64,000 bases of DNA, from positions 14,997-78,996 of the IMG/VR virus record IMGVR_UViG_3300028844_001691; one strand, given 5' to 3'. Under the pieces are notes generated by a model that was not told the DNA's origin, made no database searches, and saw nothing but the letters and a program-made list of their open reading frames with translations. Below, in pieces: positions 11,062 to 56,229 of this stretch. A program made the position numbers and the translations under genes. Within the stretch, counting starts at the first letter, position 1. Each line of letters starts with the position of its first letter. Source of the stretch: a virus.

Positions 11062-11212
11062 TTGCTTTGCCTCTGTTTTTAGATGTATTCTCTTTGTGTG
11101 GCACAGGTTCAGTTGCACCAGTTAGTTTTTTGAGCCTAGTAAATGCATCTTCATCCATGCCTGCGAAAATCCCTCTTGGGTTTCTCGGTTGTTTGTTTTG
11201 TTTGTTTTTCAT
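10991..11212 (-). CDS. small basic hypothetical protein
   Basis: Starts at the upstream stop (TAATG) but overlaps the Nfu gene by about 70 nt. Confidence 0.4.
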   Translation of the reverse strand: MKNKQNKQPRNPRGIFAGMDEDAFTRLKKLTGATEPVPHKENTSKNRGKANDSKNKRRNSKRNKPSSGTKHST

Positions 11213-32244: not shown

Positions 32245-33326
32245 TTAAATTGTTCTCCAAATGGATCAAACTCTGATCCGCATTTCATTGAGCAAACTTT
32301 AAGTTTACCATCATTGCAACTTGGCTTATTCCAACTGTTAGCAATGTCTTCGAATATTCCTGTAGCAAACACTTTGTCCAATCCGTGCCTGGCATCAACT
32401 TTATCTTTGCCACCTGCACGTTCAATGAAGTCCCATATAGGTTCTTCTTTCTTTGGATCTTTATGCCACCATTTGTACATACGTCCGGCTGTCCAGCAAC
32501 AAGGAAGTGCAAGTCCTTCAGCACTAATATAGAGACTTTTAGTAGTTGCATTAGAAACTTTACATTTTATTTGAGCCGTATCGTAATACGAATCCATACT
32601 ACCGTGTCTTTTGACTAGTTCGTCTTGTTGTTGTAATGCTTTGTTTAAGTATTTATTATCTGGTTTTTTAAGTTTAGTACTGTCCTGTCCTTTGCGATTC
32701 TTTGCTTGGTGCGTTTCTTTCTTATCAGTAGTTGCAGTTACAAATCGTCCTGTCTTTTTACTAACAAAACTTTCAAAGCCAATACTCTCTGCTAAGGCCC
32801 GTGCTTCGTCTACTTGATGTTGGTTGTGTTCAAATATTAAAAAGTCCCAACGTGCTTTACCGCCTGCATTAACAAAACTTCTCATACTGCGTTCAACTAT
32901 ACTCCAGTTAACACCTTGTCTATATAAATGGTTTGTATCTTCTAATCCGTCTACACTGAAGATAACGTGACCGTTCTTTCCAAATACATTTGCTAGTTCA
33001 ATCCACCATTCTTCTTTTTGTGCACCTGCGTTGGTATTCATACTTAACCAAATGTCTGGATTGTGTTCTCTAAAGTAACGGAACACTTCTAATGTATCGG
33101 TAGCAACAATAGGATCACCTAAGTTACCACACATAAACATCGACTTTAATTGTTTAACAAAGTCGACGTTAAATATCTTTTTGCAATCTTCTAATGTAAG
33201 TTCATCTAAATTAATATGTGGATTAATTCCTTCTCCATTCATATTTCTATCACACATAGGACAAGCCGCTTGACACTTCTGTGTAATTTCTAAATGGATT
33301 GTGTCGATGTCTGTTATATTATACAT
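32241..33326 (-). CDS. radical SAM enzyme with C-terminal SPASM-like domain (type A)
   Basis: CQAACPMCDR, GNLGDP, FSVDGLEDTNHLYR, PCCW...VCSMKCG. Confidence 0.93.
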   Translation of the reverse strand: MYNITDIDTIHLEITQKCQAACPMCDRNMNGEGINPHINLDELTLEDCKKIFNVDFVKQLKSMFMCGNLGDPIVATDTLEVFRYFREHNPDIWLSMNTNAGAQKEEWWIELANVFGKNGHVIFSVDGLEDTNHLYRQGVNWSIVERSMRSFVNAGGKARWDFLIFEHNQHQVDEARALAESIGFESFVSKKTGRFVTATTDKKETHQAKNRKGQDSTKLKKPDNKYLNKALQQQDELVKRHGSMDSYYDTAQIKCKVSNATTKSLYISAEGLALPCCWTAGRMYKWWHKDPKKEEPIWDFIERAGGKDKVDARHGLDKVFATGIFEDIANSWNKPSCNDGKLKVCSMKCGSEFDPFGEQFK

Positions 33327-33729
33327 TACTAATTCTGTTTCTTAAATCCGTTGTACTAAATCTGTGATCTCTTTTATTAAAGTAAAGTTCAATGTCTCTG
33401 CGTTTACAAGTATCTTTTCCTGTAAAGTCTTTATCTCTATACTCTTCTCCAAGTATTCTAACATTGATGTTTAACGTTTGCAGAATATCTTCTAAGTCTT
33501 GTTCTGTTTGATATGGAATAACTTCATCTACATATTCAACTGCTTTTAGTTGTAAGTATCTTTCAAACATTGTTTGTACTGGTTTGTTTTTTGTATCTGG
33601 TCTATCGATAGTTGGATCACTATGGAATCCTAATATTAAATAATCACATTGATTTTTAGCATCACGAAGCATAGCAACGTGCCCGGCGTGTAATAAATCA
33701 AACGTACTAAATGTTATTCCTACTTTCAT
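33319..33729 (-). CDS. cytidylyltransferase (TagD/glycerol-3-phosphate CT-like)
   Basis: TFDLLHAGH (HxGH), KPVQ...ER, FSTT; start MKVGITF at 33729. Confidence 0.9.
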   Translation of the reverse strand: MKVGITFSTFDLLHAGHVAMLRDAKNQCDYLILGFHSDPTIDRPDTKNKPVQTMFERYLQLKAVEYVDEVIPYQTEQDLEDILQTLNINVRILGEEYRDKDFTGKDTCKRRDIELYFNKRDHRFSTTDLRNRISNV

Positions 33730-33890
33730 AATATCGATTTCCTTCTGCATTCTTCATATACTCTCCAAGTCCACCATGTACTAATCACTATAGGTAAACC
33801 TGACCAACTACCATGCATCCACATCATTATTCCTGTGTGCAATAATTTACTGTGCCAGTAAATACTCAAGTAGTCGTACCATTTAAACAT
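33726..33890 (-). CDS. 54-aa Trp-rich small protein (not in ORF track)
   Basis: MFKWYDYLSIYWHSKLLHTGIMMWMHGSWSGLPIVISTWWTWRVYEECRRKSIL; TAATG and ATGA coupling on both sides. Confidence 0.7.
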   Translation of the reverse strand: MFKWYDYLSIYWHSKLLHTGIMMWMHGSWSGLPIVISTWWTWRVYEECRRKSIL

Positions 33891-34231
33891 TAATGGTTTC
33901 TCTTTCCGTCAAACACACATACAAAATAACATCCGTCGTTACCTGCATGGACTCTGTGAAAGTGTCCGTCTTCAATTAATATAACATCTCCCGGAGCAAC
34001 AGTGTGTTCTGTCTTTACTCCGTTAGTGTTTATTAGTTCCATTGTTCCAGAACCACTTATAAAATTGTATACTTCTTCTTGTCCTACATGAGCATGACCC
34101 GTAGTACTTTTATTGGGTTTTAAATCTGTACTGCTAACAACAAGATTGTTTAGTGTCTTGTTATCTTTAAGTAAGTAAGTGTCATTGTCTTTAATTACTT
34201 CGCCACCTATGTCTGTTACATTTAATTTCAT
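33890..34231 (-). CDS. cupin domain protein
   Basis: HAH...EEVY...GSG...PGD...FHRV. Confidence 0.85.
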   Translation of the reverse strand: MKLNVTDIGGEVIKDNDTYLLKDNKTLNNLVVSSTDLKPNKSTTGHAHVGQEEVYNFISGSGTMELINTNGVKTEHTVAPGDVILIEDGHFHRVHAGNDGCYFVCVFDGKRNH

Positions 34232-34968
34232 TGCTTAACCTTATCATTATATTCAACTGCACTTCTAAGAATACTAAAGTCTAATCCTTGTTGATGAGCA
34301 GTTTTAATTATTGCAGTTGTATCTTTAGGAAAGCAATGTCCACCAAATCCTCTATCGGCTGTTACTTTACTGTGTCCTATTCCGATACGCTCGTCATCTG
34401 TAACAAACTTTCTCACTACTTCAAAGTTAATACCCAGTGCTTGACAAAGATCAAACACTTGATTAAAATAACTAACTTTGGTTGCAAGGAAACTGTTACG
34501 CATATATTTTGTTACAATTAATTCTTGTACTGTTCCTGTTTTAAATTGTAAGTCTGGCTTTAGTGGATAAAACAGGTTAATCCAAAAAATAGAATTCTCA
34601 TCACTTATATACATTGTCTTTTGTGATGCAAAGTCTTGTACTGCCGTTTCAGCTCTTAGAAACTCTGGACTAAATGATATTTGTTTATTAGGATACTGAT
34701 CCTTAATTACTTGCCACCCTTCTATACTAATCGTGCTTTTAATTAATACAGGAACATCTGGCGAATCACTTAATACATCTAATACATTGTTAACATTACA
34801 ACTACCATCTCTGTGTTCTGGTGTGCTAACACAAATAATTAAAGCATCACAATCATTGATTGTATTTTTGTTTACTGCTGGGTCTACTATATGAGTTGAA
34901 TGATTATGTTTTAAAAACATATCCATTGCCTTACCTACATATCCATATCCTGCTATTGTTATTTTCAT
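34228..34968 (-). CDS. UDP-glucose/GDP-mannose dehydrogenase family, short form lacking the C-terminal domain
   Basis: GYGYVG, IKST, SPEFL, GFGGHCFPKD. Confidence 0.9.
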   Translation of the reverse strand: MKITIAGYGYVGKAMDMFLKHNHSTHIVDPAVNKNTINDCDALIICVSTPEHRDGSCNVNNVLDVLSDSPDVPVLIKSTISIEGWQVIKDQYPNKQISFSPEFLRAETAVQDFASQKTMYISDENSIFWINLFYPLKPDLQFKTGTVQELIVTKYMRNSFLATKVSYFNQVFDLCQALGINFEVVRKFVTDDERIGIGHSKVTADRGFGGHCFPKDTTAIIKTAHQQGLDFSILRSAVEYNDKVKQ

Positions 34969-35192
34969 TTTGCTATCCAATATATCCAAACCAACATAGG
35001 TATAATAATAAAGAACTGTGGAAGGAAGTTAAGTATAAGAGCCTTCTCTTTCCATTTATAGCCTACATATATCCAGCCACTTGCTCCTATCATTTGTAGT
35101 ATACTGTTCCAAGGTGTAATACCTGCAACATGAAACACCATTGCTAATAAGATAAAACAAGCACTTGTATATTTTATTATTCTAACTAACAT
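34965..35192 (-). CDS. small membrane protein
   Basis: Three hydrophobic segments; W.YVG..W motif; resembles 55391-55633. Confidence 0.7.
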   Translation of the reverse strand: MLVRIIKYTSACFILLAMVFHVAGITPWNSILQMIGASGWIYVGYKWKEKALILNFLPQFFIIIPMLVWIYWIAK

Positions 35193-36573: not shown

Positions 36574-37426
36574 TTCTCATATACCTTGTGTATTTGCCTA
36601 AGTCTAATTCACCTTCGTATAAAACTGTAGACATTGGCGTTTGTTCTGCAAACTCTTTTACACTGTTAACGCAATTAACGTGTTCAGGTAATTCACTGTA
36701 ATTATTATTTTGCAATACAAGTAACTTGTCTTTAGGCATTTTTGCATACCACTCACTAAAGTTTTCTATATGCTCACAACTAGTATTAATAATAGTATCA
36801 GGCTCTTCTGTTACAGCATGACTCATTCTATCGTTTGCAGTACTCCAGCAACTCCAAGTATGTCCACTGTAGTCGATGTTATGCATATCTTCTGTAATTG
36901 CTTTAAACTGCCATCCTTGTTGTACCCAATGTGCATTTACTGAGTCTGCAATTTTTTCGCATTCAGGATTAATATCAAAACTTCTAATATTATAAATTTT
37001 CAATCTGTGAGGCCACTGTCTAGGTGAGCCGGCTCTGTCCGCCAACGTTTTGCCATAACCAGTTTTTAAGTTGTCATCTCCTTGGTAAGCCTTTCTTGTT
37101 CCTCTGTGTGTTAACATAGATGCTAGTATACCATACCAACCGCCTAATATAAAAACGTTTCCTAAAAGCAATCCTGCTTTTGATCCATATACAACAGGTA
37201 AGTCATCACTTCTATCTTTAACCCATAGTTCATTATTAATATCAGTTAGTACTTGTACAATCCATTGTTTGCTTTTTAATTGTCCAATACTCATAGCATC
37301 GTTAAAGTCGACATCCATATTATTCATTGTATTACTAATATCTTTGAATAAAGGATCGCTTGTTAACATATACATACGAGCAAATAAATCTTTATCGTCT
37401 TTTACTTTTAATTGTTCTTTACTCAT
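36560..37426 (-). CDS. class I SAM-dependent methyltransferase-like protein
   Basis: VFILGGWYG, SFDINP, IINTSCEH. Confidence 0.65.
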   Translation of the reverse strand: MSKEQLKVKDDKDLFARMYMLTSDPLFKDISNTMNNMDVDFNDAMSIGQLKSKQWIVQVLTDINNELWVKDRSDDLPVVYGSKAGLLLGNVFILGGWYGILASMLTHRGTRKAYQGDDNLKTGYGKTLADRAGSPRQWPHRLKIYNIRSFDINPECEKIADSVNAHWVQQGWQFKAITEDMHNIDYSGHTWSCWSTANDRMSHAVTEEPDTIINTSCEHIENFSEWYAKMPKDKLLVLQNNNYSELPEHVNCVNSVKEFAEQTPMSTVLYEGELDLGKYTRYMRIGIR

Positions 37427-38085
37427 TTTTTAAACCTTTCTTTTAACCAGTTCCAATTATTAATATTTGTATAATCTTGTTCGTACTTGCCGTACTCTGC
37501 ACCTGCTATTGCACCTGCAATACTATAATCTCCAAAGTCTCCGTTGCCAACTGTGGTCCATACTTTTAATCTAGCATCATCTTCTTCGTTCTTTTGTCCA
37601 GGTATAATCTTACTAGTGAGTTTAGTACATTCTCTAAATGCCGCTTTCCAAGTATTAAAAGGATCAGTATCATAATGCACTGTACTTCCTATTACTGGAT
37701 ACGGAACAAACTTTGTACTAATTGCAGTTGTAAAGTCTACAACTGTTTCAACGTCAACGTCTAAGACTTTTTGTGTAGGGAATAGTTTTATTCCACTGTA
37801 TCCATATACCAAGTCATTAACACTGTTACGAGCTCGGTATACATATACTGCATCCTTGCCGTACTTGTCTGGCTTCATAGATGGGTCAAAGTCTTCTGCT
37901 ATTAAGTTGTCGCCTTCTATAACATAATACATTTCAGTACGAGCCATTTTTGCACAGGCTTGATGTGCATTTGGTAAGCCTTGTACTCCATGACTACGCC
38001 TTGCCCATGGAAACTTTTTCTTTACAATGTCCCAATGCTTATCAGCATTAGGCTCTTCATAACTCATAAAAATAATATCAAACAT
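37423..38085 (-). CDS. putative glycosyltransferase (GT-A-like; paralog of 56229-57164)
   Basis: SYEEPN, AH, EGD (DxD-like), YGYSGIKLFP, AFRE. Confidence 0.55.
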   Translation of the reverse strand: MFDIIFMSYEEPNADKHWDIVKKKFPWARRSHGVQGLPNAHQACAKMARTEMYYVIEGDNLIAEDFDPSMKPDKYGKDAVYVYRARNSVNDLVYGYSGIKLFPTQKVLDVDVETVVDFTTAISTKFVPYPVIGSTVHYDTDPFNTWKAAFRECTKLTSKIIPGQKNEEDDARLKVWTTVGNGDFGDYSIAGAIAGAEYGKYEQDYTNINNWNWLKERFKK

Positions 38086-39272
38086 TATTCGTCACCCTCA
38101 AAGTTTTTTTGTCTTTCTTCTTTTACTGCAATATTAGTAGATATCGTTGGCGCTATTACTTCACCAGTTCTAAAATCTTCTAATGTCCGCATATTGGTAG
38201 CGGGCCAGGCTACTCGTTTACTACAAGTAGTTGAACATATTCTATAACGATCCTTAGGACCTAAGCCATGTTGTTTGGCTTCCCAACTATCTACTAAATC
38301 TTCTTTAAAGAATGGATGCTCCATTACTTCGTCCCAAGTGTGCTCATATAAGTTGTTAAAGTTTTTATCGTAGTTTAAGTCGATATGATCTCTTTGTTCG
38401 TCATTACGCATATACTTTGCACTAGTAAAATAACAACAAGGCCATAGTCTACCATCATAACTTAAATGATATTGTTTTAATTCTGTTCTCCAACGACAGT
38501 CAATTGGATCATTTGGTACTTCAGTACTATCAAGTACTTGATGATATCTTCTAATTTTTTTCATATCGCCTTTGTTCTTTAGTAAGTATTCATCTAAATT
38601 ATTTAACAAAGGACTTTTATTTTCTCTTACTTTAAATTTAGTAAATCCCATAGACTTTGCTAAAACTCTTGCTTCTAATAGTTGATGTTTGTTCCACGGA
38701 AACTCTAGCATTTGCCAACTAGCTCTGCCACCTGCATCAATAAATGCTTGTGCGTTTTCCATAATCTTATCCCAACGACAATTTTTACGATACAAATGAT
38801 TAGTATCTTCTAATCCGTCTATACTAAAGTGAACAGTATGGTCGCCTGGACCTCTGCCACGTGATAATAAAACTTCAGCAAACTCTTTTAAGTACTTAGG
38901 TGTACGCATACTTCCATTAGTGTGCATACCAATATAGATATCTGGTCTAATTGAAAGTAAGTGATCAGTTATGCCTATTAAGTCTTTATGTCCTAACGGA
39001 TCATCGATTGTACCAGTGTACTGTACTTCTTTAATATTAGTAGCACCAGTCATAATATTTGTTATTAATTCTTTAGTTGCATACTTAGGCTTTCCTAATC
39101 CGGGTCTATTCTTCATAGGCAAGTTTTCGATGTTAACATTAACACCTTCTGTTTGAAGCCTTTTCAATTCGTTAAAGTCAATAGTGTTACGTTGACAACT
39201 ACTGCATAATGCATTACATACATTACTCAGTTCAAACTGAATGCCGACTGGGTTTGGTAAGTATGCACCCAT
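38085..39272 (-). CDS. radical SAM enzyme with C-terminal SPASM-like domain (type A)
   Basis: CNALCSSCQR, HTNGS, FSIDGLEDTNHLYR, LWPCC...ICSTTC. Confidence 0.92.
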   Translation of the reverse strand: MGAYLPNPVGIQFELSNVCNALCSSCQRNTIDFNELKRLQTEGVNVNIENLPMKNRPGLGKPKYATKELITNIMTGATNIKEVQYTGTIDDPLGHKDLIGITDHLLSIRPDIYIGMHTNGSMRTPKYLKEFAEVLLSRGRGPGDHTVHFSIDGLEDTNHLYRKNCRWDKIMENAQAFIDAGGRASWQMLEFPWNKHQLLEARVLAKSMGFTKFKVRENKSPLLNNLDEYLLKNKGDMKKIRRYHQVLDSTEVPNDPIDCRWRTELKQYHLSYDGRLWPCCYFTSAKYMRNDEQRDHIDLNYDKNFNNLYEHTWDEVMEHPFFKEDLVDSWEAKQHGLGPKDRYRICSTTCSKRVAWPATNMRTLEDFRTGEVIAPTISTNIAVKEERQKNFEGDE

Positions 39273-40786
39273 TAACTACACACCTTTACACCATATGCTT
39301 GTTCAAATCTATCTGCATCTGCTCTATCATTAACCATAGGCTCGCCTCTAATATTTAAACTTGTATTAAGTAAGATAGGACAACCTGTTAGTACATACCA
39401 TTTTTCTAATAGTTCTCTAACTCCACTAGGAAAATATTCGTCTACTGTTTGTACACGACTTGTTCCATCAACGTGTATGATTGCAGGAAACTCGTCTGGC
39501 TTCTTACACTTTGCAACCACTTGCATATAAGGACTTGTTTGCATTTGTGGAGGCATTTCAAAATATTCATGAACGTGTTCTGCTAATATCATAGGAGCAA
39601 ATGGTCTAAACTTTTGTCTGCGTTTAATCTCATTTACTTTGTCTTTGATTTCTGCTCCTCGAGGATCTGCTAATAAACTTCTATTACCTAATGCACGTGG
39701 ACCAAACTCTGCTTTACCACTTGCAACTCCTACAATCTTATTCTTTTGTAGTTCATCAATTAAAGCATCTGTTGGATATGCACCTGGGATAGGTGTTCCT
39801 AAGAATGGAGTCTCCCAATTAAGTTTACTACCATAAGCCAATGCCGCGGCACCTAAGGCACTGCCACAGTCTCCTGGGTTAGGCATAATCCAAATGTCAT
39901 CAAAGAAATTACCAAGTCCTCTATTGTATAAACAGTTAAGAGCAACTCCTCCCATGTAAACTAAATTACGGCTTTTATTAAAACCTCTAGCTCTTGCCAT
40001 TACGTTATCAATAAGTTGTTCTACAACTGCTTGAGCACTTGCGGCGATATCATATTCGTTAACATCTTTTAAAAAATCTTTGTCTACACCAATGTGTAAG
40101 TTATCTTTAAATCTACCATCAGAGTCGTCGTGTAATAGTGCATCATAAATTTCTTTTTCGTGTGTAGGTTTACCCCAACCAGCCATACCCATCATAATAT
40201 ATTCTTCGTCTAATGGACGTAAGCCAAGTCGATGCGTTAATGCACTATAGTATAAACCAATACTGTGTGGATACTTCTGACTCCACAACTTTTTATATAC
40301 TGCATTCATCTTCTCATCGTATTCGGCGTGCCATATACTAATAGTTTCCCATTCGCCAATAGCATCGATAACAACAACAGTTGCATCATTAAATGGACTA
40401 GTCTGAAATCCAGCCGCCGCATGAGTGTGATGATGTCTATAAGTATGAAGCATCGAGTCAGGCAAATAGTTCTTGTTATCAAATGTGAATTGTTTATTAA
40501 GAGCACCTCTGGTAGTCCATGTACTACTGCGATCGCCAAACATTCCTTGTCCAGCATATAGTTCTCTAGTCTTTTTTAACCAAGGTGTTTCGTAAAATCC
40601 AATAGCATCAAACTTTCCATATCCTTCTTGATATGATAATGCTTGTTTAATTATTGGTTCACACAAATCTTTGTCATGTTTTTTCTTACTGTATCTTTCA
40701 CTATGTCCAGCAAAAACAATTTCGCCATCTTCAACAACAGCCAAACCTGCATCGTGAAATCCTGCACTTACTCCTAGTGTTAACAT
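39272..40786 (-). CDS. O-carbamoyltransferase (NodU/CmcH/TobZ family)
   Basis: FHDAG, HHHTHAAA, DAIGE, GGVALN, EFGPRALGNRS, FRPFAP, HVDGTSRVQ, LNTSLN; start at 40786. Confidence 0.95.
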   Translation of the reverse strand: MLTLGVSAGFHDAGLAVVEDGEIVFAGHSERYSKKKHDKDLCEPIIKQALSYQEGYGKFDAIGFYETPWLKKTRELYAGQGMFGDRSSTWTTRGALNKQFTFDNKNYLPDSMLHTYRHHHTHAAAGFQTSPFNDATVVVIDAIGEWETISIWHAEYDEKMNAVYKKLWSQKYPHSIGLYYSALTHRLGLRPLDEEYIMMGMAGWGKPTHEKEIYDALLHDDSDGRFKDNLHIGVDKDFLKDVNEYDIAASAQAVVEQLIDNVMARARGFNKSRNLVYMGGVALNCLYNRGLGNFFDDIWIMPNPGDCGSALGAAALAYGSKLNWETPFLGTPIPGAYPTDALIDELQKNKIVGVASGKAEFGPRALGNRSLLADPRGAEIKDKVNEIKRRQKFRPFAPMILAEHVHEYFEMPPQMQTSPYMQVVAKCKKPDEFPAIIHVDGTSRVQTVDEYFPSGVRELLEKWYVLTGCPILLNTSLNIRGEPMVNDRADADRFEQAYGVKVCS

Positions 40787-41790
40787 TAAGCTCGTCTCTC
40801 CAAGTCTAACGTGGCACAATGATGACCTCCACCTAGTGTACGACTATGTGTTAGTTGTACAGGTATAACTTCAAACTTTGCACGTTCTAATTTTTTAATT
40901 AATTTTGGTTGTCTAGGATCTACAATAACTGTTTTAGGATCTACACTTAAAACATTCATACCAATCCAATTACTTGCATAAGGATAATTATGAAACTCCA
41001 TATCCTCTACACTGTCTACCCAAATACGTTTATGCTTCTTTAAAAATTTCGGTAATTGTGAAGGTTTAACTCTTTGTTTGTTAATTAACAATGTCGATTC
41101 ATTCAACGCACATATTGTACTGTCGATGTGTGCATAAGCATAAACATCTTCCCATATGTGAACTGTATACTCAGACCCGAGTACTGTACTTAACCAAGCC
41201 GCTCCAGCCGAATTACCTGTTTGACTTTTTAAGTATAACAAGTCATTGCCAAAACGTAAAACGTTTGCGGCATCAAATATAGGAGTCTTTTCTGTAAGTT
41301 TACCATTTTCAAATACTTCGTGTACTGGTAATGCATGACGTGGAGCACTAATCCATTTAACACCAGACTTCATTGCTTCGTGTCTAATATCTCTATATGC
41401 TTCTGTTTCGTGAAACCTACTATGAAACAATACAGGAGTTTCAATTACTGTATTGCCTACTACAAGTATAACATCTCTTGGACAATAATTATAAAACCCA
41501 TCTGCAAAGTATCTATATCCATGTACTGTTTGTTGAAAGTCTAATTGTCTTGGACGTAAAACTTCGACGCCTAAATCTGTTAATACTTTTTCAAATTGTC
41601 GTAGTTCATGGTCTGTTAAATCTAATATGTCTTTACTAATTGGTCCAACTGGTTGTGCAGATTCAGTCCACTTGCTATGTTTAGCAACTTCATTAAAGAC
41701 ATCATCATACTTTGGAAATCTTGCACCGTGAACATCTCCTAATACAACTCTTTTTAATGGATCCCATTCATTGTGCGATTCAATAATCAT
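40786..41790 (-). CDS. amidinotransferase (glycine / inosamine-phosphate amidinotransferase family)
   Basis: NEWDPL, YCPRD, FDAAN, HIDST, GGGHHCATLD with catalytic Cys. Confidence 0.93.
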   Translation of the reverse strand: MIIESHNEWDPLKRVVLGDVHGARFPKYDDVFNEVAKHSKWTESAQPVGPISKDILDLTDHELRQFEKVLTDLGVEVLRPRQLDFQQTVHGYRYFADGFYNYCPRDVILVVGNTVIETPVLFHSRFHETEAYRDIRHEAMKSGVKWISAPRHALPVHEVFENGKLTEKTPIFDAANVLRFGNDLLYLKSQTGNSAGAAWLSTVLGSEYTVHIWEDVYAYAHIDSTICALNESTLLINKQRVKPSQLPKFLKKHKRIWVDSVEDMEFHNYPYASNWIGMNVLSVDPKTVIVDPRQPKLIKKLERAKFEVIPVQLTHSRTLGGGHHCATLDLERRA

Positions 41791-42485
41791 TTCGTGTTTC
41801 CTATTTTAAAACATTTTGTAATACTTGGATACTTCACGTGTTGTGGCATTTTTTCTTTATACTGATCCAACTTAACTATACCAACTGCCGATTGTTCTGG
41901 CGACAGATAGTAATGATATCCAATTTCTTCATATTGCTCTTTATCCCAAGGAGACACTTTTAGGTCTCTACCATCGTACCTAGAGCGAATAATCCAATCA
42001 TATGCTTCTCTATTATCTAATAGTATAGCACCGCCTTTGCCAATTGTCAATGGTTTTCCATTGCCAAAGCTCAAGCATTTGAACGTTTCTGCTTCATACA
42101 TATTACGTTGTAATCTTCTAGCACTGTCAAATATAGGTAATTGTCCTAATTTATATTCGCCAATCCATTTATCTTCATTGATATTAAAAGATAAATCTAA
42201 ACGTTTAAGCATCATAGGAATACTTAAATATGTTTGATCAGGTATATCAATATGTGGAACACGATTTGGGTGTTTTCTTTTATACCACCTTATACATAAT
42301 TCGATTGCGTGTGTGCAACAATCAGTTGTTATCACATATGGTGCTCCAGTATAATCAGCAAGACGTTTTTCAAATTCGCTTATAACATCATACGGATCAT
42401 TCCAACTAACACCATAATCTTTTAACATCTCTAGGATGTCAAGATTAATAATGTCCTGTAATTTGTAAGGTGTATCTTGGTTCAT
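41787..42485 (-). CDS. DegT/DnrJ/EryC1/StrS aminotransferase, short form
   Basis: FEKRLADY, DCCTHA, DSA, SFGNGKPL...GGAI. Confidence 0.85.
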   Translation of the reverse strand: MNQDTPYKLQDIINLDILEMLKDYGVSWNDPYDVISEFEKRLADYTGAPYVITTDCCTHAIELCIRWYKRKHPNRVPHIDIPDQTYLSIPMMLKRLDLSFNINEDKWIGEYKLGQLPIFDSARRLQRNMYEAETFKCLSFGNGKPLTIGKGGAILLDNREAYDWIIRSRYDGRDLKVSPWDKEQYEEIGYHYYLSPEQSAVGIVKLDQYKEKMPQHVKYPSITKCFKIGNTK

Positions 42486-42969
42486 AACCTATATTGCCTG
42501 CACTGTGTGGAACTCTTCCACGCCAAAGCACGGCTCCTCCTTTGTGCCAATTCATACTATATTGGTCTACTTCAAACATATGTCCTTGTTTTTTATCTTC
42601 TAAAAATACTAAACAACGTAACACATCATCACTACTTTCGATATGAAAGAGTTCTTTATATTTGTTATAGTGATCTGCGTGTGGTGGTAGTATGTCACCT
42701 GTTGTCATTTTATAGAATGTATAACCACAGTCTTTCCATTCTAAAATTTTTCCAATGTCTTTTGCCCATTGCGGAATTGCTGACTGATCATTAAACATCA
42801 TACCAGTAAAGTTATCATGTGTATGTCCAGCAGTTCTCCATTTTGCTAATTGCTCTAAGTCTCCGTAGGCAACTCGTTTATAATCAAAACTTTCAAAGTC
42901 TTTTGTTTCCCATACAGGATCAAGTTCCAGTGTATGATATTCTAAAGGACTAATCTCTTGTGTTGCCAT
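42445..42969 (-). CDS. 2OG-Fe(II) oxygenase-like protein
   Basis: LPPHAD...PHSAGN...RYTLQITG. Confidence 0.7.
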   Translation of the reverse strand: MATQEISPLEYHTLELDPVWETKDFESFDYKRVAYGDLEQLAKWRTAGHTHDNFTGMMFNDQSAIPQWAKDIGKILEWKDCGYTFYKMTTGDILPPHADHYNKYKELFHIESSDDVLRCLVFLEDKKQGHMFEVDQYSMNWHKGGAVLWRGRVPHSAGNIGYEPRYTLQITGHY

Positions 42970-44098
42970 AATGTATTACTTTCACTTTTGGATCTTTGGC
43001 TGTGTATGTACGCCATGGATCGAAAACTATTGTTGCACTGTCGACATTAAAGTTATGGTCAGTTGGGTGAGTTATAACCATAACTTCAACTGCATGGTCG
43101 AAACCATTAACAATCATTCCACCCAACTTTCCAATATAGTGTTGAACTAGTAATGCATAAGATCCATCAGTGTATGCTACTCCTGGCTTATATGTATCAC
43201 TCGTAAAGCAAATTTGCTTTCCATGTTTTAATATTTCTTTTGCCATACGTTCGGCTTGTACTTCTCTACTTTTGGCAATCGCGTCGAACAAGTCATATCC
43301 TAAGTCTAATCGTTCCGCTAAATGTCTTAGGGCAATATTATCTCTAGGGTGACAAGGTCCACCGTCGCCCATGCCTGCTTTCATATAAGCGGCACTGGTT
43401 ATTCGGTATCCTGCATTACTTAAACTATTTGTTACAACATCAACATTCATATTCCCAACACTTTGGGCAACGTCTTGAATCATATTAACTAGACTTAACC
43501 TTGCACTAATAAATGTGTTGTAAAATATTTTTGTTGCTTCTGCTTCTTCCCATGTACCAATATTATAATGCGGATCATTCTCCATTACTGTTTTGTAAAA
43601 TTTTACTAATGCTTTTGCATCAGTGTCGTTTGGTTTGTTGCCTCCAATGATAACCATATCTGGATTTACCATATCCCAAGCAACTGTACCCATAGCAATT
43701 AAGTATGGGTTATAAATTAATCTTGCTTTATCTAATAAGCCTGCGAATTCTCTTCTTGTTGTTCCTGGAAGTACTGTACTAATCAAAACAACAATAGTAT
43801 CTTCTGTTGCGTATTTGTTAATTTCTTTTAAACATTCTTTAACAGGATCTAAACCAAAGTCTTTGTTTGGTAAATGTGTTATAGGAGTTTCTCCACCATA
43901 GTCTTTATGGTGTGGAGTTTGTACTGCAACAAAGACAAAGTCCTGTCCTACTACTGCTTCTTTTGGTGTCTTAGACACTCGTACAAGCCCACTAAAGCGT
44001 TCTTCTTTGTCATACCCTGTAACTGTATGTCCTTTTTTAACTAGCATCTCAGAACTAATCATTCCAAGTTTTCCTAAACCAAACCAGCCTATTTTCAT
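42950..44098 (-). CDS. UDP-glucose/GDP-mannose dehydrogenase family
   Basis: GLGKLG, AVQTP, STVLPGT, GDGGPCHPRD, YKPG. Confidence 0.9.
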   Translation of the reverse strand: MKIGWFGLGKLGMISSEMLVKKGHTVTGYDKEERFSGLVRVSKTPKEAVVGQDFVFVAVQTPHHKDYGGETPITHLPNKDFGLDPVKECLKEINKYATEDTIVVLISTVLPGTTRREFAGLLDKARLIYNPYLIAMGTVAWDMVNPDMVIIGGNKPNDTDAKALVKFYKTVMENDPHYNIGTWEEAEATKIFYNTFISARLSLVNMIQDVAQSVGNMNVDVVTNSLSNAGYRITSAAYMKAGMGDGGPCHPRDNIALRHLAERLDLGYDLFDAIAKSREVQAERMAKEILKHGKQICFTSDTYKPGVAYTDGSYALLVQHYIGKLGGMIVNGFDHAVEVMVITHPTDHNFNVDSATIVFDPWRTYTAKDPKVKVIHYGNTRD

Positions 44099-45300
44099 AA
44101 TTCTAATACCTTTGTGATATGTTTTCTAATCTCACCTGTTCTAATTAAGTTGCGATTGTGTATAAGGATTGGTCTCATATGTTTCTTTATTGTTTCTAAT
44201 TCTTTATATGATTGATTACTAATGTCGATAATAATATCAAATACTTTATCCATTCTTTTAATAGGATCAACTTCCTCATCGTAACTTTCATCCCAAAACT
44301 CGTGGAATGTTTTTGCTCCCCAATGCTTTAACAAGTCTAAACTATGTACACCTGCTAACAATAATACAGGTGAACCTTGCTTCATAGGGTTTAATGTTTT
44401 TTCACTTATTTGTCCCCAGGGGTATTCGTAATTTGTTTCACATACCAGACTAGCAAACGAGTTCCAATAAGTATCTTCTAACGGATCAGAAGTAGTAATA
44501 TTATTTATGGCTCCTACTTGTGGGCTCATATAATCTTTCATGCTTACTACTTGACATTCAGTATCTTCTTTTGTTAACGGTAAATGAGTCATAAGGTCTT
44601 TACAACCTTTGCTATAAGATTCAAAATGTTTACTGTTGTTTAATGGAAATTTTAAAAGTACATCATCTGTTTTATGATAATGCGTAATAACACTGTCCTT
44701 TGGCATTGTGTTATATAAGAAACTAACAGCCGCGTGTCTATGCTGATCCCAGCGATATGTAAAACAGTTTATTTTATGATTAATTTCTTCTGGTAGACCA
44801 TTGCTAGGTTCTCTGTTATAATGACAAGCACCTAAACTAAAAGTGTCTAATGGGTAAATTGCCCAGTCGGAATACTTTGTGTTTTGTAATTGCTCTAACA
44901 TACGATACTCATTTGTAAATATTTTAAACTTACAGTTGTGTTTATTACACCAGTTTTGTATCATATCGAATTCATTGATGCTACAATCTTCTTGTATTAA
45001 CCCGTCTGGGCAACTATACCTGGAGTGATTTTGCCATACTGATAATACTTCGTACAAAAAGAAATATACTGTCGTATGGTCTACAAAGTTAATACTTGAA
45101 TCTGACCAAGATTCGAACCATTCACACGGACCGTCAAATATAAAATAAGGGGTTTTGATTTCTAAACTTTGGAGTGATTCTGCTGTTTTTCGAAATCTTC
45201 CACGTGTGTCACTAAATTTAGTGATGGTTGACGTTGCATCAACTACAGAGTGGTTTATTGCTTTGTTAATATTATTTATGTAAATTGAGTTAAATTGCAT
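44095..45300 (-). CDS. putative glycosyltransferase-like protein
   Basis: C-terminal LVCET...ISEKTLNP...G.KTF...DESYD, reminiscent of GT10-like donor-binding motifs. Confidence 0.5.
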   Translation of the reverse strand: MQFNSIYINNINKAINHSVVDATSTITKFSDTRGRFRKTAESLQSLEIKTPYFIFDGPCEWFESWSDSSINFVDHTTVYFFLYEVLSVWQNHSRYSCPDGLIQEDCSINEFDMIQNWCNKHNCKFKIFTNEYRMLEQLQNTKYSDWAIYPLDTFSLGACHYNREPSNGLPEEINHKINCFTYRWDQHRHAAVSFLYNTMPKDSVITHYHKTDDVLLKFPLNNSKHFESYSKGCKDLMTHLPLTKEDTECQVVSMKDYMSPQVGAINNITTSDPLEDTYWNSFASLVCETNYEYPWGQISEKTLNPMKQGSPVLLLAGVHSLDLLKHWGAKTFHEFWDESYDEEVDPIKRMDKVFDIIIDISNQSYKELETIKKHMRPILIHNRNLIRTGEIRKHITKVLEL

Positions 45301-46648
45301 CGAACCAAGCCATATATTCGGGAAAAACTTCGCTAAAAATGGTACTTCTACGTTTATCGAGCTCTTTAGTATATACTTTAAAGTTCTGCTTATGATTATT
45401 ACTATCTACTGTTTGTTGACTTCTCCAGTATTCAATAATACGTTCTAGTTTAGCAGTTTCACTATTATGCATTAACTCTACAATTTCCATCTGTTTCATA
45501 TACTCAACTGTATTAGTCATGTATTCTTCAAATGTTTTATCTAGTATTTTAACATCCATCATCTCAGGATATCTTAAAAAAGGTATGTCAATGTACATAC
45601 AATCTCTACCGTATTGTTTTCTTATTTCAACTAAATCTTTTAGGAAGTCTTTGAATGATGTTACACTTAATGCATTGTAGGTACACATGAATGTAACTAC
45701 AAACCTGTCTTCATTTTTAAATTCTTCTAATACACGTTTTACATTTTTTATAAACTTGTTATAATCTAAACCATTTCTAATATACTCTGCTTTATTACCA
45801 AATGCTTCTGCACTTGTGTAAACTTCTAGTTTACGAACTTTGCCACTTGCTAATACTTTCTTTGCTTGATTAATAAACTTATCGAATAGTTTGTCCTCAA
45901 CACAAAAGTTACTATTAATACCTAACAGTAAATCTTTATTTGGTTTATCTGTTTCAATGATCCAGTCCATCATTTTAAATGTGTTCTTGTTCATAAGTGG
46001 CTCGCCACCTGTAACACGGAACGTATGCAATGCTGGATACAACTCAGGCCACCATTCCCAAAATGCTTCTACATATGGATTGTGTTCTCTTTCTGGTATA
46101 GGCATTCTGCCTCTACGTTCTGTCCATGTTATGTCGTTGTAATTATCTGAAGTGCTAAAGCCTCCATGTTGTTTTACTTCTTGCATCCACGCACTACTAA
46201 TAGCAGGACTACAATACATACATTTAAAATTACAAGCATAACCAAAACTTACTTCTACATAACTTGGTTGAAAGTTTGTACTCCAATCATTATTTTTAAT
46301 TGTATCAAAGTGTTTGTTACTCCAACTAAATGCACTCTTTAAATGTCTGTCACTTAAAGCATTTGGATCTGCATCTTCAACTCTCCAACAGTAGTCACAT
46401 TCTTTAGGTCTACCACCTTCAAGCATTTCTTTACGTTGTTGTTTTTTATATATAGAGTTGTGTAATGAACTAGGGTCTAGTTTAATTTCGTCAACTGGTA
46501 CTTGGTGTACCGGTGGGTGATGACAACTATGTGCAGTTCCATTTTGTAAGTTAAGTGTAAGTTGTGTCCACTTTGCTAAACAGAATCCAGGACCTACTGC
46601 ATTCAGTTTGGCTTTCATTTCATGCGGATCTGTTCCGGTAAAACTCAT
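45290..46648 (-). CDS. N-terminal Twitch-domain radical SAM enzyme (type B)
   Basis: FCLAKW, SCHHP, CDYC, CNFKCMYC, TGGEPL, YIRNG. Confidence 0.93.
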   Translation of the reverse strand: MSFTGTDPHEMKAKLNAVGPGFCLAKWTQLTLNLQNGTAHSCHHPPVHQVPVDEIKLDPSSLHNSIYKKQQRKEMLEGGRPKECDYCWRVEDADPNALSDRHLKSAFSWSNKHFDTIKNNDWSTNFQPSYVEVSFGYACNFKCMYCSPAISSAWMQEVKQHGGFSTSDNYNDITWTERRGRMPIPEREHNPYVEAFWEWWPELYPALHTFRVTGGEPLMNKNTFKMMDWIIETDKPNKDLLLGINSNFCVEDKLFDKFINQAKKVLASGKVRKLEVYTSAEAFGNKAEYIRNGLDYNKFIKNVKRVLEEFKNEDRFVVTFMCTYNALSVTSFKDFLKDLVEIRKQYGRDCMYIDIPFLRYPEMMDVKILDKTFEEYMTNTVEYMKQMEIVELMHNSETAKLERIIEYWRSQQTVDSNNHKQNFKVYTKELDKRRSTIFSEVFPEYMAWFDAI

Positions 46649-56051: not shown

Positions 56052-56229
56052 CTTCTTTTCTTATACTCCAAGTTTTATTGTCAAGTTCTTCCCAAATAAG
56101 ATTATCACCTACGTCCCATCCTACTTGATCTAAACACCCAGGAGGAAATTCTAAAAACAGTTCTTTTGTTTTGCCATTCTCTTGTATTTCTACTGTCCAA
56201 CTGTTTGTTCCTGTTTGTTTATATTTCAT
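56032..56229 (-). CDS. AbrB/MazE-like DNA-binding protein
   Basis: LEFP...LDQVGWDVGDNLIW swapped-hairpin pattern. Confidence 0.7.
   Translation of the reverse strand: MKYKQTGTNSWTVEIQENGKTKELFLEFPPGCLDQVGWDVGDNLIWEELDNKTWSIRKEDETNRT

What the first reader, a model, noticed from the sequence alone, without database searches (positions are those of the whole stretch)
39272..44098. Aminoglycoside-like tailoring cassette: dehydrogenase, oxygenase, DegT aminotransferase, amidinotransferase, carbamoyltransferase
Seen: five consecutive overlapping genes. Known: a DegT-type aminotransferase followed by a StrB1-type amidinotransferase builds the guanidino groups of streptidine, and TobZ/NodU enzymes O-carbamoylate sugars. 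Inference: the phage may make a guanidino- and carbamoyl-substituted sugar, with Twitch radical SAM enzymes (BtrN-like) supplying keto intermediates.
Basis: partly seen in the sequence, partly recalled or inferred. Interest (0 to 1): 0.75.

Follow-up and report, generated by a model that had tools for sequence, protein, structure and literature searches.

The report
Phage guanidino-sugar tailoring gene cassette
An uncultured giant marine T4-like phage carries five intact enzyme genes, centred on a streptomycin-type amidinotransferase, whose core recurs with a sugar-transferase gene in hundreds of phage contigs and probably makes a positively charged guanidino sugar that nobody has yet detected.

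Summary
Window 39272-44098 (minus strand) has five consecutive, overlapping, intact genes:
- a nucleotide-sugar 6-dehydrogenase-like enzyme;
- a 174-aa Fe(II)/2-oxoglutarate oxygenase;
- a 232-aa "mini" DegT aminotransferase;
- an amidinotransferase much closer to StrB1 than to AGAT, SxtG or HsvA;
- a NodU/TobZ-type carbamoyltransferase.

All are under purifying selection (dN/dS 0.05-0.20).

The unit is wider than five genes. The upstream 401-aa gene (44095-45300) models as a GT-B glycosyltransferase. The set of glycosyltransferase, dehydrogenase, oxygenase and amidinotransferase, often with the mini-DegT and an N-terminal-twitch radical SAM, recurs in at least three gene orders in about 140 sampled viral contigs. 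The carbamoyltransferase is a lineage-specific addition.

I found no inositol, kinase or phosphatase genes, so this looks like nucleotide-sugar and glycan chemistry rather than a streptidine or aminoglycoside pathway. "BtrN-like" is not supported.

Product and acceptor are unknown. The most likely product is a guanidino, here also carbamoylated, sugar handed to the glycosyltransferase.

This scan reached the same reading on other phage genomes. In the literature such genes are annotated in phages S-SCSM2R and CP220, with no function shown.

The parts
45290..46648 (-). Radical SAM enzyme with an N-terminal twitch domain (452 aa). It lies just upstream of the cassette and often accompanies it in other phages.
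   Evidence: NCBIfam NF033640 N_Twi_rSAM, 326 bits against a cut-off of 170. Homologues lie beside the module in 37 of 72 oxygenase-seeded viral loci. No PDB sequence match at E<=0.1.
44095..45300 (-). GT-B-fold glycosyltransferase-like protein (401 aa) from a virus-only family. It is the probable transferase for the tailored sugar.
   Evidence: No Pfam, PHROG or NCBIfam hit. The AlphaFold model has pLDDT 65, with a well-predicted C-terminal half. All top Foldseek hits are GT-B enzymes. VIA-align gives Z 10.4 for T4 AGT, 10.3 for GlgM and 9.8 for T4 BGT. The Atlas clusters are 100% viral. Homologues lie within 6 kb of the amidinotransferase or oxygenase in 45/70 and 51/72 viral loci.
42950..44098 (-). 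Nucleotide-sugar 6-dehydrogenase-like enzyme (382 aa) of the UDP-Glc/GDP-Man dehydrogenase family
   Evidence: Pfam N-terminal and central domains above cut-off. PHROG 9148, E 9e-82. The catalytic Cys motif GGPCHPRD and the K/N motif align to UGDH 2o3j. TIGR03026 scores 139.5 bits, below its cut-off of 189.8. Found next to the amidinotransferase in 57/70 viral loci.
42445..42969 (-). Miniature Fe(II)/2-oxoglutarate-dependent oxygenase (174 aa)
   Evidence: H97, D99, H155 and R165 are invariant in 42 homologues. The model has pLDDT 92. Foldseek and VIA-align hits are all Fe/2OG oxygenases: prolyl hydroxylases at Z 13.7, and the sugar-acting enzymes SnoK, EvdO2, AviO1 and HygX at Z 11-12. The family is 97-100% viral.
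41787..42485 (-). Mini-DegT: a half-size PLP-dependent sugar aminotransferase homologue (232 aa) with no C-terminal domain
   Evidence: Pfam DegT, 63.8 bits, covering roughly profile positions 30-260 of 360. T58, D120, S139 and K144 (the Schiff-base Lys in LSFxxGK) are invariant. The database search gave 5871 hits at E<=1e-5, and the 120 best listed are all 190-243 aa long. dN/dS is 0.13-0.20.
40786..41790 (-). StrB1-type L-arginine amidinotransferase (334 aa)
   Evidence: phmmer against the PDB: StrB1 (1bwd) 284 bits, HsvA 170, SxtG 164, AGAT 156. Equivalents of StrB1 D108, R127, D179, H227, D229 and C332 are invariant. Lowest dN/dS of the set, 0.05-0.15. It sits in a viral clade outside the bacterial and Streptomyces clade.
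39272..40819 (-). NodU/CmcH/TobZ-type O-carbamoyltransferase (515 aa), an addition specific to this lineage
   Evidence: Pfam Carbam_trans_N and _C. PDB: NovN 178 bits, GdmN 170, TobZ 138, with the HHxxH, D-G and YrdC-like motifs aligned. PHROG 1601, E 1e-97. Present in only 6/70 and 1/72 of the other viral loci.
38085..39272 (-). Radical SAM/SPASM enzyme (395 aa), a variable insert after the carbamoyltransferase
   Evidence: Pfam Radical_SAM and SPASM. Among the close relatives it is found only in L009. No PDB sequence match.
37423..38085 (-). Conserved 220-aa protein of unknown family, a paralogue of 56229-57164, that follows the cassette
   Evidence: No family hit. Kept downstream in all close relatives. 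The family lies near the module in 32 of 72 oxygenase-seeded loci.

Best explanation
The five genes belong to a phage-specific sugar-tailoring module.

What the sequence shows: all five enzymes are intact, and their catalytic residues are in place.

What I infer as the route:
1. The dehydrogenase oxidises a nucleotide-activated hexose to its uronic acid. The sugar is probably supplied by the phosphomannomutase-like and nucleotidyltransferase genes a few kb upstream.
2. The small Fe/2OG oxygenase oxidises a ring carbon, giving a keto sugar.
3. The mini-DegT turns the keto group into an amine.
4. The StrB1-type amidinotransferase moves the amidino group of L-arginine onto that amine. This makes a guanidino group and releases ornithine.
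5. In this lineage the NodU/TobZ-type enzyme also O-carbamoylates a hydroxyl.
6. The adjacent GT-B-like protein (44095-45300) transfers the finished sugar to an acceptor that has not been identified. The most likely acceptor is a virion or cell-envelope glycoconjugate.

The logic parallels the WbpA/WbpB/WbpE/WbpD route to 2,3-diamino uronic acids. Here a 2OG oxygenase would stand in for the 3-dehydrogenase, and amidination for N-acetylation.
For: Enzyme identities and catalytic residues.

Functional coupling:
- In 70 amidinotransferase-seeded viral loci outside the window's clade, the dehydrogenase is nearby in 57, the oxygenase in 55 and the glycosyltransferase in 45.
- In 72 oxygenase-seeded loci, the amidinotransferase is nearby in 56, the glycosyltransferase in 51, the mini-DegT in 49 and the dehydrogenase in 42.
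- The same set appears in at least three gene orders:
  - '<GT DH> OX> AT>'
  - '<DH mDegT> AT> OX> GT> <rSAM'
  - 'GT> DH> OX> mDegT> AT> CT>'
  Rearrangement with retention is the classic sign of one pathway.

Glycan context:
- The 401-aa protein has a GT-B fold.
- PMM-like and sugar-1-phosphate nucleotidyltransferase genes lie upstream in the same strand run.
- In the cultured cyanophage S-SCSM2R, the oxygenase and amidinotransferase pair sits among five annotated glycosyltransferases, a 195-aa DegT and a radical SAM.
- In Campylobacter phage CP220, an amidinotransferase sits between radical SAM genes and two nucleotide-diphospho-sugar transferases.

Selection and occurrence:
- Purifying selection acts on all six genes.
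- The stretch recurs in marine metagenomes from several studies, and pieces of all five genes occur in contigs from RNA libraries of four studies. This is only a weak hint of expression.

Precedent: several Fe/2OG oxygenases that act on sugar carbons (SnoK, EvdO2, AviO1, HygX) are among the structural neighbours.
Against: - No product, substrate or acceptor has been observed. Every chemical step is inferred.
- The commonest arrangement ('<GT DH> OX> AT>') has no aminotransferase, so the amine may come from elsewhere or the acceptor may not be a keto-derived amino sugar.
- StrB1's known acceptors are phosphorylated cyclitols, not nucleotide sugars.
- The dehydrogenase scores below NCBIfam's subfamily cut-off, and Pfam did not detect its C-terminal nucleotide-binding domain.
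- The glycosyltransferase model has only moderate confidence (pLDDT 65), and its Z scores of 8-10 lie near the zone where matches can reflect just a common fold.
- The role of a 2OG oxygenase as a sugar alcohol oxidase is a guess.
Confidence: 0.55

Rival explanations
1. DNA hypermodification. The tailored (guanidino) sugar is transferred by the GT-B protein onto a modified base of the phage genome, as T4 alpha- and beta-glucosyltransferases do with 5-hydroxymethylcytosine. This would shield the DNA from host nucleases.
For: - The best VIA-align matches of the glycosyltransferase model include both T4 DNA glucosyltransferases (1y6f Z 10.4, 1c3j Z 9.8) and a phage glycosyltransferase, 9iqz.
- The carriers are T4-like.
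- In 23 of 70 loci a UvdE-like endonuclease gene follows the module.
- AlkB-type nucleic-acid oxygenases are among the structural neighbours of the oxygenase, Z 11-12.
Against: - Those Z values are tied with many non-DNA GT-B enzymes such as GlgM, BshA, PimB and fucosyltransferases.
- No ThyA-type hydroxymethylase, C5 DNA methyltransferase or TET/JBP gene was found in the window's contig or in its 306-kb, 87%-complete relative.
- The window encodes a ThyX-type thymidylate synthase, which is normal dTMP supply.
- In this genome the module lies inside a 50-kb island with sugar-activation genes that begins beside the tail-fibre genes.
Confidence: 0.12
2. A diffusible aminoglycoside-, cyclitol- or guanidine-alkaloid-like small molecule (an antibiotic or signal) made in the infected cell. 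This is what the first reader's analogy implies, and it matches the label 'antibiotic synthesis genes' used for S-SCSM2R.
For: - The amidinotransferase is 45-50% identical to StrB1.
- An amidinotransferase with a carbamoyltransferase recalls bluensomycin. In Streptomyces bluensis (L019) a 30%-identical carbamoyltransferase lies about 8 kb from the StrB1 homologue.
- The same pairing recalls saxitoxin (SxtG and SxtI; from my own knowledge).
- The S-SCSM2R paper lists such genes as antibiotic synthesis genes (PMC12801897).
Against: - No inositol-phosphate synthase, inositol dehydrogenase, kinase, phosphatase, exporter or resistance gene was found among about 60 ORFs scanned.
- The conserved partners are a nucleotide-sugar dehydrogenase and a glycosyltransferase, not cyclitol enzymes.
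- Of 80 bacterial loci with StrB1 homologues, only two also carry the oxygenase, and one of these also carries the dehydrogenase and the glycosyltransferase. Both nest inside viral clades.
- The window's enzyme lies outside the actinomycete clade.
Confidence: 0.1
3. The amidinotransferase serves arginine, guanidino or nitrogen metabolism of the infected cell, acting on a free amino acid or polyamine (for example glycine, lysine, ornithine or putrescine). The neighbouring sugar enzymes would then work on separate substrates.
For: - Characterised relatives outside StrB1 (AGAT, SxtG, HsvA) use small amines, and HsvA uses polyamines (molecule names; substrates from my own knowledge).
- The commonest module form lacks an aminotransferase.
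- Rare bacterial fusions join the amidinotransferase domain to ATP-grasp ligase domains.
Against: - It links tightly to the dehydrogenase, oxygenase and glycosyltransferase through several gene rearrangements.
- It is much closer to StrB1 than to the small-amine enzymes, 284 against 156-170 bits.
- It aligns to StrB1 end to end with only short gaps.
- It is repeatedly embedded among glycosyltransferases in three distant phage lineages.
Confidence: 0.1

Closest known systems
StrB1, L-arginine:inosamine-phosphate amidinotransferase of Streptomyces griseus (PDB 1bwd; streptidine branch of streptomycin biosynthesis)
   Same: Homologous end to end (284 bits, about 45-50% identity). Similar length (334 against 348 aa). 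Equivalents of D108, R127, D179, H227, D229 and C332 are conserved.
   Different: The phage enzyme belongs to a viral clade outside the bacterial and actinomycete clade. Its partners are a nucleotide-sugar dehydrogenase, a 2OG oxygenase and a GT-B protein rather than inositol-pathway enzymes. Its acceptor is unknown.
WbpA/WbpB/WbpE/WbpD pathway to UDP-2,3-diacetamido-2,3-dideoxy-glucuronic acid (Pseudomonas aeruginosa O-antigen; from my own knowledge, not tested here)
   Same: The same order of enzyme classes: nucleotide-sugar 6-dehydrogenase, then oxidation to a keto sugar, then a DegT-type transaminase, then modification of the new amine, then glycosyl transfer.
   Different: The oxidation step would be done by a small Fe/2OG oxygenase rather than an NAD-dependent dehydrogenase. 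The transaminase is half-size. The amine would be amidinated, not acetylated. None of this has been shown experimentally.
Bluensomycin (bluensidine) biosynthesis in Streptomyces bluensis, and TobZ/NovN/NodU O-carbamoyltransferases
   Same: A StrB1-type amidinotransferase and a NodU-family carbamoyltransferase in one cluster (L019). The phage carbamoyltransferase has both the Kae1-like and YrdC-like domains with their motifs.
   Different: Only 30% identity to the S. bluensis enzyme. The bluensomycin substrate is a cyclitol. In phages the carbamoyltransferase is limited to the window's clade and one other locus.
Radical SAM plus 'putative glycine amidinotransferase' modules of Campylobacter phages CP220/CPt10 (Timms et al. 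2010, PMC2853527), and the 'antibiotic synthesis genes' of cyanophage S-SCSM2R (PMC12801897)
   Same: These are T4-like phages that combine an amidinotransferase with several radical SAM enzymes and glycosyltransferases. S-SCSM2R has true homologues of the oxygenase (hhalign 99.8%), the mini-DegT (37% identity) and the amidinotransferase (35% identity).
   Different: The CP220 amidinotransferase is only 26% identical, and the gene upstream of it shows no detectable similarity to the oxygenase. Neither paper assigns a product, and neither noted the conserved dehydrogenase, oxygenase, amidinotransferase and glycosyltransferase set.

Membership tests
Amidinotransferase, StrB1 type (pentein / guanidino-group-modifying superfamily) | Full-length homology, closer to StrB1 than to AGAT, SxtG or HsvA | tested here: met
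   StrB1 284 bits (E 1e-83) over residues 2-332, against HsvA 170, SxtG 164 and AGAT 156 bits
Amidinotransferase, StrB1 type (pentein / guanidino-group-modifying superfamily) | Catalytic Cys-His-Asp triad and substrate-binding Asp/Arg (StrB1 C332, H227, D108, D179, D229, R127) | tested here: met
   C325, H221, D106, D173, D223 and R125 align to these residues and are invariant in 17 diverse homologues
Amidinotransferase, StrB1 type (pentein / guanidino-group-modifying superfamily) | Transfers the amidino group from L-arginine to inosamine phosphate | not testable with these tools
   Needs an enzyme assay
Amidinotransferase, StrB1 type (pentein / guanidino-group-modifying superfamily) | Placement inside the actinomycete StrB1 clade | tested here: not met
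   In the quick ML tree of 153 sequences the window lies in a viral clade of 19 (SH-aLRT 96). The 84 bacterial sequences, including S. griseus, form a separate clade (SH-aLRT 95). The root is uncertain.
DegT/DnrJ/EryC1/StrS sugar aminotransferases | Pfam PF01041 above the gathering score | tested here: met
   63.8 bits against a cut-off of 19.8
DegT/DnrJ/EryC1/StrS sugar aminotransferases | PLP-binding residues: Schiff-base Lys, Asp to the pyridine N, Ser/Thr to the phosphate | tested here: met
   K144, D120, S139 and T58 are invariant in 15 mini-DegT sequences. The SFxxGK motif aligns with the Lys motif of AHBA synthase and ColD-type enzymes.
DegT/DnrJ/EryC1/StrS sugar aminotransferases | Two-domain architecture of about 360-400 aa with a C-terminal small domain | tested here: not met
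   The protein is 232 aa and ends near profile position 260 of 360. The next gene starts 4 nt before its stop codon. All 120 best database relatives are 190-243 aa long.
NodU/CmcH/TobZ carbamoyltransferases | Kae1-like N-terminal and YrdC-like C-terminal domains, both above cut-off, with their metal- and nucleotide-binding motifs | tested here: met
   138 and 178 bits. The HHxxHA, GDxG, GPRALGNRS and FRPFAP motifs align to NovN.
UDP-glucose/GDP-mannose 6-dehydrogenases | NAD-binding and central domains, with the catalytic Cys | tested here: met
   PF03721 63.5 bits and PF00984 56.7 bits. GGPCHPRD aligns to GFGGSCFQKD of UGDH.
UDP-glucose/GDP-mannose 6-dehydrogenases | C-terminal nucleotide-sugar-binding domain, and the NCBIfam TIGR03026 subfamily cut-off | tested here: inconclusive
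   PF03720 was not reported. TIGR03026 scores 139.5 bits, below its cut-off of 189.8, but the alignment reaches profile position 363 of 413.
Fe(II)/2-oxoglutarate-dependent oxygenases | Double-stranded beta-helix fold with the HxD...H iron triad and a 2OG-binding Arg | tested here: met
   H97-x-D99, H155 and R165 are invariant. All 50 top VIA-align matches are Fe/2OG oxygenases, Z 10.0-13.7. The Pfam Asp_Arg_Hydrox hit itself is below its cut-off.
GT-B glycosyltransferases (for the adjacent 401-aa protein) | Two Rossmann-like domains with a nucleotide-sugar-binding C-terminal domain | tested here: inconclusive
   Model pLDDT is 65, with only the C-terminal half confident. Nearly all top hits are GT-B enzymes, but at Foldseek E about 1e-3 and Z 8-10.4. 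There is no sequence-profile hit to the PDB.
Streptidine / aminoglycoside cyclitol pathway | Inositol dehydrogenase, inosamine kinase and phosphatase alongside the aminotransferase and amidinotransferase | tested here: not met
   None was found among about 60 ORFs of the window scanned with Pfam or NCBIfam
BtrN-type twitch radical SAM dehydrogenases | Sequence relationship to BtrN, with the auxiliary-cluster (twitch) domain C-terminal to the radical SAM core | tested here: inconclusive
   phmmer of 38085-39272 and 45290-46648 against the PDB gave no match at E<=0.1. 45290-46648 belongs to NF033640, whose twitch domain is N-terminal. That BtrN's domain is C-terminal comes from my own knowledge.

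The most novel reading that the evidence does not exclude
Hundreds of T4-like, often jumbo, aquatic phages share a virus-specific pathway: a GT-B transferase, a nucleotide-sugar dehydrogenase, a miniature 2OG oxygenase, a half-size DegT and a StrB1-type amidinotransferase. It makes a guanidino-substituted, in this lineage also carbamoylated, uronic-type sugar and attaches it to virion proteins, the host envelope or even the phage DNA. A cationic guanidino sugar in a glycoconjugate or a genome would be a kind of biological modification not yet described.
Probability: 0.35. Interest if true: 0.8.

Novelty: new variant of a known kind. Interest (0 to 1): 0.6.

Why it matters
As far as I know, guanidino sugars are known only from a few actinomycete antibiotics. 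If confirmed, a conserved phage pathway for one would add a new building block to viral glycobiology.

The pathway is common. At least 429 viral stretches carry the amidinotransferase and at least 586 carry the oxygenase. Its carriers include abundant marine T4-like jumbo phages.

Possible uses:
- It could explain part of the large, unexplained "glycan islands" of these phages, with consequences for host range, virion stability or evasion of host defences.
- It offers unusually small enzyme scaffolds (a 174-aa 2OG oxygenase and a mini-DegT of about 200 aa) for enzymology and chemoenzymatic synthesis.

A cultured carrier exists (Synechococcus phage S-SCSM2R), so the question can be tested directly.

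Tried and rejected
- The genomic context of the roughly 50%-identical metagenomic amidinotransferases therefore had to be read from IMG/VR and GTDB loci instead.
- **No close relative among cultured phages.** Megablast of the cassette against cultured phages gave no match.
- **PDB sequence searches with no hit.**
  - phmmer of the oxygenase: none.
  - Its profile: only a marginal AtsK hit, E 0.03.
  - Profile of the 401-aa family: none.
  - phmmer of both flanking radical SAM proteins: none, so no link to BtrN could be shown.
- **CP220 gp085.** This is the gene upstream of the CP220 amidinotransferase. It showed no similarity to the oxygenase profile.
- **Fusion proteins.** A search for longer proteins containing the amidinotransferase found only two bacterial cases. 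One carries ATP-grasp domains and one is 667 aa. Neither helps with the phage module.
- **DNA-modification partners.** Searches in the window's contig and its relatives found no ThyA-type hydroxymethylase (PF00303), C5 methyltransferase (PF00145) or TET/JBP gene (PF12851). These records are incomplete, and the TET model matched none of the control genomes either, so this is weak evidence.
- **Partners seen in other phages.** Genes that follow the module elsewhere (a UvdE-like gene and the families I labelled c5, c11 and c12) have no homologue in this 79-kb contig.
- **RNA-library contigs.** They cover only parts of the stretch. The uncovered parts, and the contigs themselves, do not prove or exclude transcription.
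- **Not used.** Complex prediction was not run, because the report makes no binding claim.

Full report
**What is there**

The window is the last 64 kb of a 78,996-bp virus record. CheckV rates the record about 22% complete.
- The first 22 kb carries phage genes on the plus strand: a tail-fibre-like protein, an exonuclease, a ThyX-type thymidylate synthase and a QueE-like radical SAM.
- From window position 7422 to the end, everything runs on the minus strand.
- Close relatives include a 306-kb contig that is 87% complete. It has a T4-type gp23 capsid gene, as do two 340-kb phages carrying the same module.
- The carrier is therefore an uncultured marine T4-like jumbo phage.

Within 39272-44098 there are five consecutive minus-strand ORFs that overlap by 20, 41, 4 and 34 nt.

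**The five genes**

*Dehydrogenase, 42950-44098 (382 aa).*
- It has the NAD-binding and central domains of the UDP-glucose/GDP-mannose dehydrogenase family.
- It matches PHROG 9148 at E 9e-82.
- It keeps the catalytic cysteine motif, GGPCHPRD aligned to GFGGSCFQKD of UGDH.
- It is divergent: 139.5 bits against TIGR03026, below the cut-off of 189.8.

*Oxygenase, 42445-42969 (174 aa).*
- It has only a sub-threshold Asp_Arg_Hydrox hit.
- Forty-two homologues share an invariant H97-x-D99...H155...R165 motif.
- A pLDDT-92 model matches only Fe(II)/2OG oxygenases, by Foldseek and by VIA-align. The best are prolyl hydroxylases at Z 13.7, rmsd 3.5, 160 residues aligned. The sugar-acting enzymes SnoK, EvdO2, AviO1 and HygX score Z 11-12.

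*Mini-DegT, 41787-42485 (232 aa).*
- It is a DegT-family protein (63.8 bits) without the C-terminal domain.
- The Schiff-base lysine (K144), D120, S139 and T58 are invariant.
- The database search gave 5871 hits at E<=1e-5. The best 120 are all 190-243 aa long. It is a natural half-size family, not a truncated gene.

*Amidinotransferase, 40786-41790 (334 aa).*
- It scores 284 bits against StrB1 (1bwd) over its whole length. HsvA scores 170, SxtG 164 and AGAT 156.
- The equivalents of StrB1 D108, R127, D179, H227, D229 and C332 are invariant.

*Carbamoyltransferase, 39272-40819 (515 aa).*
- It has both carbamoyltransferase domains.
- It aligns with NovN, GdmN and TobZ with the catalytic motifs in place.

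*Selection.* All five genes, plus the upstream 401-aa gene, show dN/dS of 0.05-0.20 against three relatives.

**The real unit is different from the five genes**

The gene just upstream (44095-45300, 401 aa) has no family hit and belongs to a virus-only family. Its model has pLDDT 65, with a confident C-terminal half.
- By Foldseek it resembles only GT-B glycosyltransferases.
- By VIA-align the best matches are T4 alpha-glucosyltransferase (Z 10.4), GlgM (10.3) and T4 beta-glucosyltransferase (9.8), followed by many other GT-B enzymes.

Relatives of the amidinotransferase occur in at least 429 stretches of IMG/VR. I looked at 70 such loci outside the window's own clade:

| Partner gene | Loci of 70 |
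|---|---|
| Dehydrogenase | 57 |
| Oxygenase | 55 |
| 401-aa family | 45-54 |
| Mini-DegT | 15 |
| Carbamoyltransferase | 6 |

I then seeded from the oxygenase, which has at least 586 viral stretches. This gave 72 further loci:

| Partner gene | Loci of 72 |
|---|---|
| Amidinotransferase | 56 |
| Glycosyltransferase | 51 |
| Mini-DegT | 49 |
| Dehydrogenase | 42 |
| Homologue of the N-terminal-twitch radical SAM 45290-46648 | 37 |
| Carbamoyltransferase | 1 |

The same set occurs in at least three gene orders:
- '<GT DH> OX> AT>'
- '<DH mDegT> AT> OX> GT> <rSAM'
- the window's 'GT> DH> OX> mDegT> AT> CT>'

A gene set that stays together through rearrangement is strong evidence for a single pathway.

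**Phage-specific rather than bacterial**

- Among 80 loci from species-representative bacterial genomes that encode StrB1 homologues, only two also carry the oxygenase. One of them also carries the dehydrogenase and the glycosyltransferase.
- In the tree, those two amidinotransferases nest deep inside viral clades. Both contigs are short pieces of metagenome-assembled genomes, so they are probably phage DNA.
- The 84 other bacterial sequences, including Streptomyces StrB1, form one clade. The window lies in a separate viral clade of 19 (quick tree, root uncertain).

**Cultured carriers**

- Among cultured phages, only Synechococcus phage S-SCSM2R has the oxygenase (hhalign 99.8%), the amidinotransferase (35% identity) and a 195-aa DegT (37% identity). 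There they sit among five annotated glycosyltransferases and a radical SAM. Its authors list them as "antibiotic synthesis genes" (PMC12801897).
- Campylobacter phage CP220 has a more distant amidinotransferase (26% identity) among five radical SAM genes and two nucleotide-diphospho-sugar transferases. Timms et al. noted this module in 2010 without assigning a function (PMC2853527).

**How it probably works**

The sequence shows intact catalytic machinery in all the enzymes. The route itself is inferred:
1. A nucleotide-activated hexose is oxidised at C6 by the dehydrogenase. PMM-like and nucleotidyltransferase genes lie a few kb upstream.
2. The 2OG oxygenase oxidises a ring carbon to a ketone.
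3. The mini-DegT aminates it.
4. The amidinotransferase converts the amine to a guanidine, using arginine.
5. In this lineage the carbamoyltransferase adds an O-carbamoyl group.
6. The GT-B protein transfers the product.

This mirrors the logic of the WbpA/B/E/D pathway (my own knowledge). I put about 0.55 on this reading.

Weak points:
- The commonest module form has no aminotransferase.
- StrB1's known acceptors are cyclitol phosphates.
- The acceptor of the glycosyltransferase is unknown.

**Rivals**

- *DNA hypermodification, 0.12.* It is suggested by the T4 AGT and BGT matches, but these are tied with many other GT-B enzymes. No hydroxymethylase, C5 methyltransferase or TET/JBP gene was found in the 87%-complete relative.
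- *Aminoglycoside-like free metabolite, 0.10.* It lacks the expected inositol, kinase, phosphatase and export genes among about 60 ORFs scanned.
- *Role in free amino-acid or polyamine metabolism, 0.10.* It does not explain the tight linkage to the sugar enzymes.

- "DegT followed by StrB1-type amidinotransferase" is right, and the pairing recurs, but the DegT is a mini form.
- "TobZ/NodU carbamoylates sugars" is plausible, but the gene is an add-on in this lineage.
- "BtrN-like Twitch radical SAM supplying keto intermediates" is not supported. Neither flanking radical SAM matches any solved structure by sequence. The conserved one belongs to NF033640, whose twitch domain is N-terminal.

**Occurrence and expression**

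The stretch occurs nearly unchanged in marine metagenomes from several independent studies. Contigs from RNA libraries of four studies hold near-identical pieces of all five genes. This fits with transcription in nature but does not prove it, because RNA libraries can contain DNA.

**Novelty**

- Each enzyme family is known. The combination has not been characterised: a virus-specific, rearranging set built around a StrB1-type amidinotransferase with a miniature oxygenase, a half-size DegT and a GT-B transferase.
- The papers found only annotate single genes.
- Earlier follow-ups of this scan reached the same reading on other phage genomes. Within the scan, this is therefore one more member of a module already seen.
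- I rate it a new variant of a known kind (sugar and glycan tailoring clusters), with interest 0.6.

Noticed in passing
window 33319-34989 (-): A second, shorter trio of sugar enzymes. It consists of a 253-aa truncated nucleotide-sugar dehydrogenase homologue (34228-34989), a 113-aa small cupin (33890-34231, weak oxalate-decarboxylase and ectoine-synthase-type hits) and a 143-aa cytidylyl/adenylyltransferase (33319-33750, RfaE domain II / glycerol-3-phosphate cytidylyltransferase-like). The trio is conserved in the close relatives.
   Followed up: partly
L069 (Haliscomenobacter MAG contig) and L085 (Terrimicrobiaceae MAG contig): These were the only two of 80 'bacterial' loci with the oxygenase next to the amidinotransferase. 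L069 also has the glycosyltransferase, the dehydrogenase, a UvdE-like gene and a shortened DNA polymerase III alpha. Their amidinotransferases nest inside viral clades, so the contigs are probably phage DNA binned into MAGs.
   Followed up: partly
L098, L223 and 21 other viral loci; L069:5899-6930: A UvdE-like endonuclease (TIM-barrel) gene often lies a few genes downstream of the module (23 of 70 loci). Three families with no Pfam hit sit in between: c5 (about 238 aa), c11 (about 412 aa) and c12 (about 191 aa). None has a homologue in this window's contig.
   Followed up: partly
L163:17354-20337 (S-SCSM2R ORF266-269): S-SCSM2R has a second, more divergent 'glycine amidinotransferase' (ORF266) beside 2OG oxygenases and KdsA/KdsB. 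The paper reports ORF266 and the oxygenase ORF269 in the purified-virion proteome (PMC12801897).
   Followed up: no
proteins P0121-P0240; phage records MW353175-7, LR756502, LR756511: The mini-DegT belongs to a very large family of short proteins: 5871 hits at E<=1e-5, and the 120 best listed are all 190-243 aa long. It also occurs in Flavobacterium myophages ('immuto'), next to a mannosyltransferase, and in two roughly 600-kb huge phages. Those phages have no amidinotransferase hit.
   Followed up: no
proteins P0241 (667 aa) and P0242 (720 aa): Rare long proteins that contain a StrB1-like amidinotransferase domain. In P0242 it is fused to ATP-grasp ligase domains (PF15632, PF02655, PF21360).
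   Followed up: no
window 8090-8812, 10320-11118 (-): A 240-aa fragment-sized AMP-binding (adenylate-forming) domain protein, plus SufE and NifU-like Fe-S supply genes, lie at the downstream end of the same minus-strand run.
   Followed up: no
L101, L105, L125, L119, L121, L130: Some viral loci carry two amidinotransferase paralogues a few kb apart. One is next to a mini-DegT or a 256-aa unknown protein, the other next to the dehydrogenase. Two or three copies of the GT-B-like family accompany them.
   Followed up: no
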